The translations under genes were made by a program, and so were the position numbers. A stretch of 64,000 nucleotides of DNA from Escherichia coli (GTDB lineage: Bacteria; Pseudomonadota; Gammaproteobacteria; Enterobacterales; Enterobacteriaceae): assembly GCF_044647545.1 (NCBI RefSeq), contig NZ_CP172818.1, one strand, 5' to 3'. Each line of letters begins with the position of its first letter. The stretch's first letter is position 1. The notes beneath the pieces were generated by a model. That model was not told where the DNA came from and searched no databases. It was given only the letters and a program-made list of their open reading frames with translations. This document shows positions 53,380-55,935 of this stretch, piece after piece.

Positions 53380-54408
53380 ATGGCAGAGCAAACCTCGCGT
53401 CTCGCAATAATTATTGATAGCACTGGAGCGAAAAATAATGCTGACAATCTGACCTCCTCATTAGTCAAAATGACGCAGGCTGGGGAAACTGCTGCAAATA
53501 GCGCAGGGAAAGTGACTAAGGCAACAGAAGATGAGAAGAACGCGCTCGCAAAATTAAAAGCAGCTATTGATCCAGTTGGTGCCGCAATTGATACTGTCGG
53601 TCGACGCTATTCTGAATTAAAGAAATTTTTCGATAAAGGGCTTATTGATAAAGAAGAATATGAATTTCTTGTCCGTAAACTTAATGAAACCACAGAGGAA
53701 TTGAGCGGGGTTGCGCAAGCGCAGAGAGAAGCCGAGAAGGCCGGAAAACTTGCTGCCGCTCAGCAGGAAGCGCAGGCTCAGGCCTTTCAAAGAATGCTGG
53801 ACAAGATCGACCCTCTGGCTGCGGCGCTAAGAAATCTTGAACAACAGCATGATGAACTTAATGCTGCGTTTGCATCCGGGAAAATAAATGGTTCTCAGTT
53901 TGAGAATTATAGCCGAAAAATACAGGAAACACGGCGAGAGCTTACCGGAGAGGCTCAGGCAGAGCGAGAAGCAGCAAAAGCGCATGATGAACAGGTTGTT
54001 GCTTTGCAACGTCTGATTGCTCAACTTGATCCTGTCGGAACTGCTTTTAATCGTCTGGTAGAACAACAGAAACAGCTCAATGAAGCAAAAGCTAAGGGGA
54101 TGCTTTCTCCTGAAATGTATGAGGAGCTTTCTGGAAAACTTCGTGCTATGCGGAGTGAGCTTGAGGTTACTCAATCACAATTAAGCAAAACCGGAATGTC
54201 GGCAAAACAAACGGCTTTTGCTATGCGCATGTTGCCTGCACAAATGACGGATATTGTTGTTGGGTTGTCCACTGGTCAGTCGCCATTTATGGTGTTAATG
54301 CAGCAGGGCGGCCATTCAGCTATGCAGGAGACAAGAATCGCCAGCTTACCCGTTACAGCGATACCCGCTGGCATGAAGATTCAGTGCGTAACCGCTGGTT
54401 CAGCATGA
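53380..54408 (+). CDS. tmpR: tail tape-measure protein fragment (N-terminal coiled-coil part)
   Basis: 342 aa ORF, highly alpha-helical A/E/K/Q-rich sequence; C-terminal ~35 codons overlap lom-frame sequence, indicating a deletion junction. Confidence 0.7.
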
Positions 54409-54524
54409 TGGCGGGGCCATCTGTACGCGTGAATGAATGGTTCAGTGCTTATGCGATGGCGGGTGTGGCTTACAGCCGTGTTTCGACGTTCTCCGGGGAT
54501 TATCTCCGCGTAACTGACAACAAG

Positions 54525-55720
54525 GGAAGGTGCGAATAAGCAGGTCATTTCTTCCCAAGCTGACTCGTTGATTAAAATTTCGCGGATCTGGGCCGATTTT
54601 TTTCCCGCAAACACATCGAATCAGCCTATTTAGGCTATTTTTTCCACCATTTCTGGCGTTATTTCCGGTTTTTACTGAGATCTCTCCCACTGACGTATCA
54701 TTTGGTCCACCCGAAACAGGTTGGCCAGGGTGAATAACATCGCCAGTTGGTTATCGTTTTTCAGCAGCCCCTTGTATCTGGCTTTCACGAAGCCGAACTG
54801 CCGCTTGATGATGCGAAACGGGTGCTCCACCTTGGCACGGATGCTGGCTTTCATGTATTCGATGTTGATGGCCGTTTTGTTCTTGCGCGGATGCTGCTTC
54901 AAGGTTTTTACCTTGCCGGGACGCTCGGCGATCAGCCAGTCCACATCCACCTCGGCCAGCTCCTCGCGCTGTGGCGCTCCTTGGTAGCCGGCATCGGCTG
55001 AGACAAATTGCTCCTCTCCATGAAGCAGATTACCCAGCTGATTGAGGTCATGCTCGTTGGCCGCGGTGGTGACTAGGCTGTGGGTCAGGCCACTCTTGGC
55101 ATCGACACCAATGTGGGCCTTCATGCCAAAGTGCCACTGATTGCCTTTCTTGGTCTGATGCATCTCCGGATCGCGTTGCTGCTCTTTGTTCTTGGTAGAG
55201 CTGGGTGCCTCAATGATGGTGGCATCCACCAAAGTGCCTTGGGTCATCATGACGCCTGCTTCGGCCAGCCAGCGATTGATGGTCTTGAACAATTGACGGG
55301 CCAGTTGATGCTGCTCGAGCAGGTGGCGGAAATTCATGATGGTGGTGCGATCCGGCAGGGCGCTATCCAGAGATAATCGGGCAAACAGGCGCATGGAGGC
55401 GATTTCGTACAGGGCATCTTCCATGGCACCGTCGCTCAGGTTGTACCAATGCTGCATGCAGTGAATACGCAGCATGGTCTCCAGCGGATAGGGCCGTCGG
55501 CCATTGCCCGCCTTGGGATAAAACGGCTCGATGACAGCGGTCATATTCTGCCATGGCAGAATCTGCTCCATGCGGGAGAGGAAAATCTCTTTTCGGGTCT
55601 GACGGCGCTTAGTGCTGAATTCACTATCGGCGAAGGTGAGTTGATGGCTCATGATGTCCCTCTGGGATGCGCTCCGGATGAATATGATGATCTCATATCA
55701 GGAACTTGTTCGCACCTTCC
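54525..55720 (-). mobile_element. IS5 insertion sequence (1196 bp)
   Basis: Terminal inverted repeats ggaaggtgcgaa... at both ends; flanked by 4-bp target duplication CAAG (54521-54524 and 55721-55724); contains an IS5 transposase ORF. Confidence 0.9.
54672..55652 (-). CDS. insH: IS5 transposase
   Basis: 326 aa [38 protein letters not shown]... matching recalled IS5 InsH. Confidence 0.9.
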
Positions 55721-55935
55721 CAAGGGGAAAACGCACGATGTGCTGACCGGAAGTGATGACGATCGCCACAGCAACACGTCTCTGGCGTGGGGAGCTGGCG
55801 TGCAGTTTAACCCGACCGAATCCGTGGCCATTGACATTGCTTATGAAGGCTCCGGCAGTGGCGACTGGCGCACTGACGGTTTCATCGTGGGTGTCGGTTA
55901 TAAATTCTGATTAGCCAGGTAACACAGTGTTATGA

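What the first reader, a model, noticed from the sequence alone, without database searches (positions are those of the whole stretch)
54300..55930. IS5 inserted in lomR with CAAG target duplication; tape-measure fragment fused out of frame to lom
A complete 1196-bp IS5 with terminal inverted repeats interrupts the Lom-family reading frame and is flanked by CAAG on both sides. Upstream, the tape-measure ORF runs directly into lom sequence in a different frame. A deletion therefore appears to have removed the rest of the tape-measure gene and all distal tail genes between H and lom.
Basis: seen in the sequence. Interest (0 to 1): 0.4.

Follow-up and report, generated by a model that had tools for sequence, protein, structure and literature searches.

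The report
IS-interrupted lom in Rac prophage
This is the well-known scar in the defective Rac prophage of E. coli: an 8.4-kb deletion joins a truncated tail tape-measure gene to a truncated lom gene, which an IS5-type insertion sequence then splits; it is real, but ordinary and already annotated.

Summary
A 1196-bp IS5-family element lies at 54525-55720 on the minus strand. It has 16-bp terminal inverted repeats (15/16) and an intact 326-aa transposase. It sits inside a lom gene and is flanked by CAAG at 54521-54524 and 55721-55724. Uninterrupted lom genes carry one CAAG at that spot, and removing the IS plus one CAAG restores the Lom frame. Upstream, the first 935 nt of a 3234-nt tape-measure gene (53380-54314) abut lom nt 205 at 54314/54315, sharing a 2-nt CA, in a different frame. 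Full-length Rac-type prophages show that about 8.4 kb is missing: the rest of the tape-measure gene, the M, L, K, I and J homologues, and lom codons 1-68. The same arrangement is annotated in E. coli K-12 (ynaA/tmpR pseudogene, lomR'-IS5Y/insH5-'lomR) and occurs in 344 of 5426 complete E. coli genomes. Refinements: the IS is the ISKpn26/IS5Y isoform (91% identical to canonical IS5), CAAG departs from the IS5 YTAR target motif, and two further deletions of the same kind gut the prophage. The window is not K-12; the same degraded Rac sits in an ST648-like chromosome. Already known, low interest.

The parts
53380..54314 (+). N-terminal fragment of the tail tape-measure gene (935 of 3234 nt: 311 codons plus 2 nt). 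It corresponds to K-12 ynaA/tmpR.
   Evidence: It is 99.8-99.9% identical to nt 1-935 of the intact 3234-nt tape-measure genes of ON032529.1 and CFSAN061771. It matches PHROG phrog_3827 at E=2e-102 and phrog_24 at E=1.7e-68, both 'tail length tape measure protein'. K-12 annotates it as a pseudogene 'missing C-terminus'.
53380..54408 (+). Fused 342-aa ORF: 311 tape-measure codons followed by 31 codons read from lom DNA in the wrong frame, ending at TGA.
   Evidence: ORF list and frame arithmetic. No gene with exactly this product is on record, because two of the window's differences from K-12 fall in the ORF's tail.
54313..54314 (.). Deletion junction with a 2-nt microhomology (CA) shared by the tape-measure parent (GGCGGCCA|GCTAAAAG) and the lom parent (GTGACGTCA|TTCAGCTA).
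   Evidence: Sequences of both parents and the three-way junction display.
54315..54524 (+). lom 5'-truncated fragment, codons 69-138. Its last 4 nt are the left copy of the target duplication.
   Evidence: It is 94-98.6% identical to intact lom genes from nt 205 onward. tblastn places Lom residues 69-141 at 54315-54533. PHROG phrog_108 'Lom outer membrane protein' aligns from profile position 69 of 199.
54521..54524 (.). Left copy of the CAAG target-site duplication.
   Evidence: Intact lom genes have a single CAAG here.
54525..55720 (-). Complete IS5-family insertion sequence of the ISKpn26/IS5Y isoform, 1196 bp.
   Evidence: It is 1196/1196 identical to plasmid copies annotated 'IS5-like element ISKpn26 family transposase' and 1191/1196 identical to the K-12 lomR copy.
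54525..54540 (.). Terminal inverted repeat distal to the transposase start (GGAAGGTGCGAATAAG).
55705..55720 (.). Terminal inverted repeat proximal to the transposase start (CTTGTTCGCACCTTCC).
54672..55652 (-). Transposase gene, 326 aa (the InsH5 homologue).
   Evidence: ORF list. NF033581 scores 366.8 bits against a cut-off of 140. phrog_3598 'transposase' matches at E=3e-174. It differs from the K-12 copy at 2 residues.
55721..55724 (.). Right copy of the CAAG target-site duplication.
   Evidence: the BLAST segments on the two sides of the IS overlap on the reference.
55725..55910 (+). lom 3' fragment, codons 139-199 plus the stop codon.
   Evidence: tblastn places Lom residues 138-200 at 55722-55910. 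K-12 annotates it as an 'Ail/Lom family' fragment 'missing N-terminus'.
55937..55958 (+). Terminator-like GC-rich hairpin with a T run just after the lom stop codon.
   Evidence: The same sequence follows intact lom genes.

Best explanation
The region carries two independent inactivating scars in the tail module of a defective Rac-type lambdoid prophage, which occupies window ~38.8-61.9 kb and is integrated at ttcA.

The first scar is an illegitimate, microhomology-level deletion of about 8.4 kb with a 2-nt CA overlap. It joined nt 935 of the tape-measure gene to nt 205 of lom. It removed the rest of the tape-measure gene, the tail-tip genes (M, L, K, I and J homologues) and the Lom signal peptide and first strands. 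What remains is a 342-aa hybrid pseudogene and a promoterless, N-terminally truncated lom.

The second scar is an insertion of an IS5-family element of the ISKpn26/IS5Y isoform. It transposed into lom after codon 138, in the orientation opposite to the tail genes. Its DDE transposase made the 4-bp staggered cut that became the CAAG duplication.

Shown here: both junctions at base resolution, the empty-site comparison, the identity of each fragment, and the fact that the arrangement is the annotated K-12 Rac structure.

Inferred: the mechanisms (illegitimate recombination; cut-and-paste transposition with a 4-bp stagger). Also inferred is that the two scars arose once in a common ancestor of this Rac copy and the K-12 copy. 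Their order cannot be resolved.
For: The window is colinear with the K-12 MG1655 Rac prophage at 98.0% identity, and the same features are annotated there: the ynaA tape-measure pseudogene, two Ail/Lom fragments flanking an IS5-like transposase, then stfR, tfaR and pinR.

Both junctions are mapped against two full-length relatives. PHROG and NCBIfam give the family assignments. Removing the IS and one CAAG restores the frame. No missing gene parts occur elsewhere in the window.

344 of 5426 complete E. coli genomes carry the whole arrangement. None carries the tape-measure/lom junction with an uninterrupted lom, and none carries the IS at this site in a full-length lom.

The literature already describes lomR'-insH5(IS5Y)-'lomR in K-12. 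Two more deletions in the same prophage have the same 2-nt microhomology signature. This fits stepwise decay by illegitimate recombination.
Against: Nothing contradicts the structural reading.

Two points bear on the single-origin inference. First, the IS copy differs from the K-12 copy at 5 of 1196 nt, and the flanking lom fragments differ at 15 of ~405 nt, while most of the rest of Rac shows 0 differences. Gene conversion, or less likely an independent event, must therefore be invoked. Second, CAAG is off the YTAR target motif reported for IS5.
Confidence: 0.95

Rival explanations
1. The IS5-type element caused the deletion itself, as an IS-mediated adjacent deletion or by recombination between two IS copies.
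For: IS5 elements do generate deletions in E. coli (PMC5009759).
Against: The deletion junction (54314/54315) lies 210 bp from the nearest IS end (54525), with unbroken lom sequence between them. An IS-mediated deletion would end exactly at an IS terminus. The intact CAAG duplication shows a simple insertion with no later rearrangement at either end. The two other deletions in the prophage have the same 2-nt microhomology and no IS nearby.
Confidence: 0.02
2. The IS in this strain is an independent insertion of plasmid-borne ISKpn26 into the same lom hot spot, not the same event as in K-12.
For: The window's IS is 1196/1196 identical to ISKpn26 copies on thousands of plasmids, yet differs at 5 nt from the K-12 lomR copy. 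Most of the surrounding Rac is identical to K-12.
Against: The position, orientation and CAAG duplication are the same as in K-12, and the target is off-consensus. No genome has the junction without the IS. Patchy allele replacement is seen elsewhere in this Rac, in recE, stfR and tfaR. Conversion of the IS by other copies in the genome is therefore the simpler account.
Confidence: 0.05
3. The arrangement is not merely decay. The lomR'-IS-'lomR structure is retained because the C-terminal Lom fragment is expressed, from a start inside or just past the IS, and is biologically active.
For: A 153-aa ORF (55449-55910, + strand) starts inside the IS and reads through the IS end into the Lom frame. 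A preprint reports transcripts of the 3' fragment in K-12 and activity of that fragment on vibriophage VP882 induction. The identical scar is kept in two different chromosomal backgrounds.
Against: The fragment has no signal peptide and only about 61 residues of an outer-membrane beta-barrel. No conservation test is possible, because all copies are near-identical. The preprint's effect was also produced by OmpX and by full-length lambda Lom, so it is not specific to this structure. The prophage carries three other inactivating lesions typical of neutral decay.
Confidence: 0.1
4. The junctions are assembly or chimera artefacts of the source genome.
For: The source genome is not among the 5426 complete E. 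coli genomes searched. It combines an ST648-like chromosome with a K-12-like Rac.
Against: The same junctions exist in 344 independently finished genomes, including K-12 MG1655. The prophage is bracketed by a perfect 43-bp att repeat exactly at the site that is empty in strain ST648.
Confidence: 0.02

Closest known systems
E. coli K-12 Rac prophage tail remnant: ynaA (tmpR) pseudogene, lomR'-IS5Y(insH5)-'lomR, stfR, tfaR
   Same: The gene order, the tape-measure/lom junction, the IS position, the IS orientation and the CAAG duplication are all the same. The IS is 1196 bp in both. The tape-measure fragment shows 0 differences in 935 nt.
   Different: There are 10 substitutions in the lom 5' fragment, 5 in the IS and 5 in the lom 3' fragment. 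The stfR and tfaR segments have diverged. The host chromosome is ST648-like, not K-12.
Full-length Rac-type prophages at ttcA|uspF (E. coli CFSAN061771, NZ_CP042896.1; the record ON032529.1 'Salmonella phage SPF_0923')
   Same: They share 99.4-99.9% identity across trkG, the tail chaperone and the tape-measure 5' end. The integration site and the downstream lom-stf-tfa-pinR order are the same.
   Different: They retain the 3234-nt tape-measure gene, M, L, K, I, J and a 600-nt lom without an IS. They also keep the head, terminase and lysis modules. The window lacks 8.7 + 11.6 + 8.4 kb relative to CFSAN061771.
Canonical IS5 (K-12 IS5A copies, e.g. the one between ynaJ and ynaI)
   Same: It has the same 16-bp terminal repeats, a 4-bp target duplication, a single long transposase ORF and about 98% aa identity.
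   Different: Nucleotide identity is 91.3%. The length is 1195 bp against 1196 bp. Its duplication is TTAG, which fits YTAR, whereas CAAG here does not. PGAP names the window's type 'ISKpn26 family'.
Phage lambda tail region H-M-L-K-I-J-lom-stf-tfa (gene order from established knowledge of lambda)
   Same: The gene order is the same in the intact Rac-type relatives. Lom belongs to the same family, phrog_108.
   Different: The Rac-type tape-measure protein and head genes are not lambda's. Here the H-to-lom interval is deleted.

Membership tests
IS5 family insertion sequence (IS5 group) | DDE transposase of the IS5 family encoded by one long ORF | tested here: met
   NF033581 scores 366.8 bits against a cut-off of 140, covering profile positions 1-285 of 285. 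phrog_3598 matches at E=3e-174.
IS5 family insertion sequence (IS5 group) | About 16-bp terminal inverted repeats beginning GGAAGGTGCG | tested here: met
   The repeats at 54525-54540 and 55705-55720 are 15/16 complementary. They are identical to those of a canonical K-12 IS5.
IS5 family insertion sequence (IS5 group) | 4-bp target-site duplication | tested here: met
   CAAG lies on both sides of the IS, and three uninterrupted lom genes have a single CAAG.
IS5 family insertion sequence (IS5 group) | Target motif YTAR | tested here: not met
   CAAG matches positions 1, 3 and 4 only. The motif is taken from PMC5009759, where it was derived from IS5A insertions and not from this isoform.
IS5 proper (canonical K-12 IS5A) versus the ISKpn26/IS5Y isoform | Near-identity of the nucleotide sequence to the reference element | tested here: not met
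   Identity to canonical IS5 is 1094/1198 (91.3%). Identity to plasmid copies annotated ISKpn26 is 1196/1196, and to the K-12 lomR copy 1191/1196. No ISfinder reference sequence was available, so the name rests on RefSeq annotation.
Ail/Lom family outer-membrane protein gene | Full-length ~199-aa precursor with a signal peptide and a complete beta-barrel | tested here: not met
   Only residues 69-199 are encoded, and the IS splits them after residue 138. Residues 1-68 are absent from the window.
Phage tail tape-measure protein | Full-length protein (1077 aa in the closest relatives) | tested here: not met
   Only 311 of 1077 residues remain. They are 100% identical to the CFSAN061771 protein over those 311 and match phrog_3827 and phrog_24.
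Rac prophage (K-12 type, defective) | Integration at ttcA with int/xis, recET, racR, trkG and stfR-tfaR-pinR in K-12 order, and the K-12 internal deletions | tested here: met
   The window is colinear with K-12 over 38.8-62.1 kb. A 43-bp att repeat brackets 23.1 kb. All three deletion junctions lie within uninterrupted alignment to K-12.

The most novel reading that the evidence does not exclude
The same triply deleted, IS-interrupted Rac as in K-12 sits, bracketed by perfect att repeats, in an ST648-like chromosome whose flanks differ from K-12 by 1-7%. Most of the prophage shows 0 differences from K-12. An already dead prophage with no head, tail or lysis genes would therefore have moved between distant E. 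coli lineages. The route could be IntR-mediated integration after conjugation, transduction or helper packaging, or recombination into a resident full-length Rac. A weaker extension is that the lomR'-IS-'lomR arrangement travels unchanged because its IS-fused C-terminal Lom ORF is used.
Probability: 0.4. Interest if true: 0.3.

Novelty: already known. Interest (0 to 1): 0.1.

Why it matters
It matters little beyond correct annotation. The region should be labelled as Rac prophage pseudogenes (tmpR/ynaA', lomR' :: ISKpn26/IS5Y :: 'lomR), not as intact genes or as a tape-measure-Lom fusion protein.

Two by-products may be useful. The first is base-resolution ancestral coordinates for all three Rac deletions, each with a 2-nt microhomology. 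These reconstruct a prophage of about 50.6 kb. The second is the observation that the K-12-type degraded Rac also exists outside the K-12 lineage, which bears on how defective prophages spread.

Tried and rejected
(1) I first assumed the window was K-12 itself. This was rejected. The best match of 53200-56100 in 5426 complete genomes is 98.6%, and the chromosomal flanks are 99.97-100% ST648-like.

(2) I looked for evolutionary intermediates that would order the two events. The junction with an uninterrupted lom was found in 0 genomes. The IS at this site in a full-length lom was also found in 0 genomes. The order stays unresolved.

(3) I looked up the exact 342-aa fused ORF in public assemblies. 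It is not on record.

(4) I tested whether the window's patches that differ from K-12 came from a resident full-length Rac like that of CFSAN061771. They did not: the patches differ from both, so a third donor is implied.

(5) I tested whether the K-12 IS copy's 5 variant bases are simply canonical-IS5 alleles. Three of the five match, which is inconclusive.

(6) An Rfam scan found nothing in 53-56 kb.

(7) The consensus promoter scan found no sigma-70-like site that would drive the lom 3' fragment.

(8) Loci L004 and L005 were not exported to the Python sandbox. ON032529.1 was fetched again as L007.

Full report
**What is there**

Reading 53000-56600 and its ORFs shows five features in order:
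- a 342-aa ORF at 53380-54408;
- Lom-like sequence from about 54315;
- a 1196-bp element (54525-55720) with a 326-aa ORF on the minus strand;
- more Lom-like sequence running to a stop at 55908-55910;
- a long tail-fibre ORF.

The element's ends are GGAAGGTGCGAATAAG and CTTGTTCGCACCTTCC, 15 of 16 complementary. CAAG lies immediately outside both ends, at 54521-54524 and 55721-55724. Removing the element and one CAAG gives an uninterrupted frame, [10 protein letters not shown]...GVGYKF*.

**Identity of the parts**

- Tape measure: residues 1-311 of the 342-aa ORF match PHROG tape-measure families (phrog_3827 at 2e-102, phrog_24 at 1.7e-68).
- Lom: the reconstituted 131-aa Lom segment matches phrog_108 'Lom outer membrane protein' over profile positions 69-199 of 199.
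- Transposase: the minus-strand ORF matches NCBIfam NF033581 (IS5 family transposase) at 366.8 bits against a cut-off of 140, full length.

**Exact junctions from intact relatives**

A search of phage records split the query cleanly. Bases 53380-54314 hit the 5' end of 3234-nt tape-measure genes at up to 99.8% identity. Bases 54313-54524 hit lom genes at up to 98.6%.

Two full-length Rac-type prophages served as references. One is ON032529.1, deposited as 'Salmonella phage SPF_0923', although the record also carries uspF, ompN and nifJ. The other is the prophage at ttcA|uspF of E. coli CFSAN061771.

Against both, window 52555-54314 aligns at 99.9% up to tape-measure nt 935. The alignment resumes at lom nt 203-205. 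The three sequences at the junction are:
- tape-measure parent: GGCGGCCA|GCTAAAAG;
- lom parent: GTGACGTCA|TTCAGCTA;
- window: GGCGGCCA|TTCAGCTA.

The overlap is a 2-nt CA microhomology.

The missing segment is 8,351 bp in ON032529.1 and 8,435 bp in CFSAN061771. It contains tape-measure nt 936-3234, the genes annotated as tail protein (M-like), minor tail protein L, C40 peptidase (K), tail assembly protein (I) and gpJ, and the first 68 codons of lom.

The Lom frame at 54315 is offset by 935 nt from the tape-measure start, and 935 mod 3 = 2. The tape-measure frame therefore reads 31 wrong-frame codons and stops at 54406-54408.

tblastn finds no Lom residues 1-68 and no tape-measure residues 312-1077 anywhere in the window. 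The intact lom genes carry a single CAAG at the IS site, which proves the target duplication.

**It is the known K-12 structure**

The window from 47200 to 62098 is colinear with the Rac prophage of E. coli K-12 MG1655 at 98.0% identity. RefSeq annotates that region as follows:
- ynaA, 'phage tail length tape measure family protein, missing C-terminus';
- an Ail/Lom fragment;
- an 'IS5-like element ISKpn26 family transposase';
- a second Ail/Lom fragment;
- stfR, tfaR and pinR.

A preprint describes lomR'-insH5(IS5Y)-'lomR in K-12 BW25113 and reports transcripts of the pieces (10.1101/2021.11.15.468771). In all, 344 of 5426 complete E. coli genomes hold the whole arrangement.

**Which IS**

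The K-12 lomR copy is also 1196 bp with CAAG on both sides, and it is 1191/1196 identical to the window's copy. A canonical K-12 IS5, the one next to ynaJ, is 1195 bp with a TTAG duplication and is only 91.3% identical in nucleotides (about 98% in protein).

The window's copy is 1196/1196 identical to copies on many plasmids annotated as ISKpn26 family. At least 3563 plasmid records match at 99% or better, mostly from Klebsiella and Escherichia.

Lee et al. (PMC5009759) count ten IS5A copies and one IS5B copy in K-12, and report YTAR as the IS5 target motif. The lomR copy is presumably their IS5B, which is my inference. CAAG misses the T at position 2 of the motif.

**Mechanism**

The deletion is not IS-mediated. 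About 210 bp of unbroken lom sequence separate the junction from the IS, and the target duplication is intact.

Two other deletions in the same prophage have the same signature:
- 8,738 bp at 50126/50127, with a TA overlap;
- 11,561 bp at 52555/52556, with an AA overlap, joining a ParB-like N-terminus (ynaK) to a tail-assembly-chaperone fragment (ydaY; phrog_313).

Together the three deletions remove 28.7 kb, which implies an ancestral prophage of about 50.6 kb.

I infer stepwise decay by illegitimate recombination plus one simple transposition. The order of the lom deletion and the IS insertion cannot be resolved. Neither intermediate exists in the 5426 genomes.

**Context that differs from K-12**

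Window 1-38830 and 61887-63851 are 99.97-100% identical to the chromosome of E. coli strain ST648. That strain has ttcA directly next to uspF, with no prophage between them. A perfect 43-bp direct repeat at 38788-38830 and 61887-61929 brackets 23.1 kb of prophage.

Inside the prophage, most 500-bp bins show 0 differences from K-12, while the flanks differ by 10-76 per kb. The exceptions are patches in intR, recE, 50.0-50.5 kb, lomR and the stfR 5' end, and the stfR 3' end and tfaR. These patches also differ from CFSAN061771.

In the lom 5' fragment, K-12 shares the allele of the intact Rac-type reference at 8 of the 10 positions where it differs from the window. The window instead matches a lom allele like that of phage IdasGreatGrand, at 98.6%. 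This points to gene conversion in the window's lineage.

Rac-type int/xis at ttcA occurs in 1839 of 5426 genomes, so homologous partners for such exchanges are common.

The K-12-type degraded Rac therefore exists outside K-12. This implies lateral movement of a dead prophage, or recombination into a resident one. It is a side observation of modest interest.

**Verdict**

The observation and the interpretation are both confirmed, with minor corrections. The feature is already known and annotated. It is not a fusion protein or a new element.

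Noticed in passing
window 52555-52556 (ynaK 52303-52566 / ydaY 52547-52906): This is a second internal deletion of the prophage. 11,561 bp (ParB C-terminus, terminase, portal, capsid, tail tube and chaperone 5' end) are missing relative to CFSAN061771 and ON032529.1, with a 2-nt AA microhomology. ynaK is a ParB-like N-terminal fragment (phrog_620) and ydaY is a tail-assembly-chaperone fragment (phrog_313).
   Followed up: yes
window 50126-50127: This is a third internal deletion. 8,738 bp (the rest of the DUF1627 gene, a NACHT-domain gene, hokD, DUF1367/1364/1133 genes, the essD and rrrD lysis genes and part of Rz) are missing relative to CFSAN061771, with a 2-nt TA microhomology. 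It is adjacent to a patch of 27 differences from K-12 in 50000-50500.
   Followed up: partly
window 38788-38830 and 61887-61929: A perfect 43-bp direct repeat (att core) brackets a 23.1-kb Rac prophage. The flanks are 99.97-100% identical to E. coli strain ST648, whose ttcA|uspF site is empty, so a K-12-type degraded Rac sits in a non-K-12 backbone.
   Followed up: partly
window 39000-39500, 42500-43000, 56000-56500, 58500-60000: Sharp patches of divergence (12, 63, 48 and 175 differences) occur inside a prophage that is otherwise identical to K-12 Rac. They fall in intR, recE, the stfR 5' end and the stfR 3' end with tfaR. They also differ from the full-length Rac of CFSAN061771, so a third donor and mosaic recombination are implied.
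   Followed up: partly
window 54525-55720: The IS copy is 1196/1196 identical to ISKpn26 copies carried by thousands of Klebsiella and Escherichia plasmids, whereas the orthologous K-12 copy differs at 5 positions. This suggests homogenisation by other copies in the source genome.
   Followed up: partly
window 55449-55910 (+): A 153-aa ORF starts with ATG inside the IS, antisense to the transposase. It reads through the IS end in frame into the lom 3' fragment (phrog_108 positions 138-199). An in-frame GTG at 55740 preceded by AAGGGG is another possible start. A preprint reports expression of the 3' fragment in K-12.
   Followed up: partly
window ~24126-24128 and ~21228-21261: Relative to K-12, the canonical IS5 between ynaJ and ynaI is absent. 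About 2.4 kb holding pgrR and ycjY is also absent. The same is true of strain ST648.
   Followed up: no
window 40440-40618, 59683-59881, 36018-36135, 32545-32640: Rfam matches above the gathering score are the RalA antitoxin sRNA (Rac), IS009 (in the tfaR region), FnrS and McaS. There are none in the region of the finding.
   Followed up: no
window 56400-57300 (within stfR, 55969-59340): An Ala/Ser-rich low-complexity stretch of the tail-fibre gene produces long spurious ORFs in several frames on both strands (249-372 aa).
   Followed up: no
L007 (ON032529.1) 28143-35262: The record deposited as the complete genome of 'Salmonella phage SPF_0923' contains sitABCD, uspF, ompN and part of nifJ, and it begins within the lysis/trkG region. 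It looks like a partial Rac-type prophage prediction with E. coli-type host flank, not a packaged phage genome.
   Followed up: no
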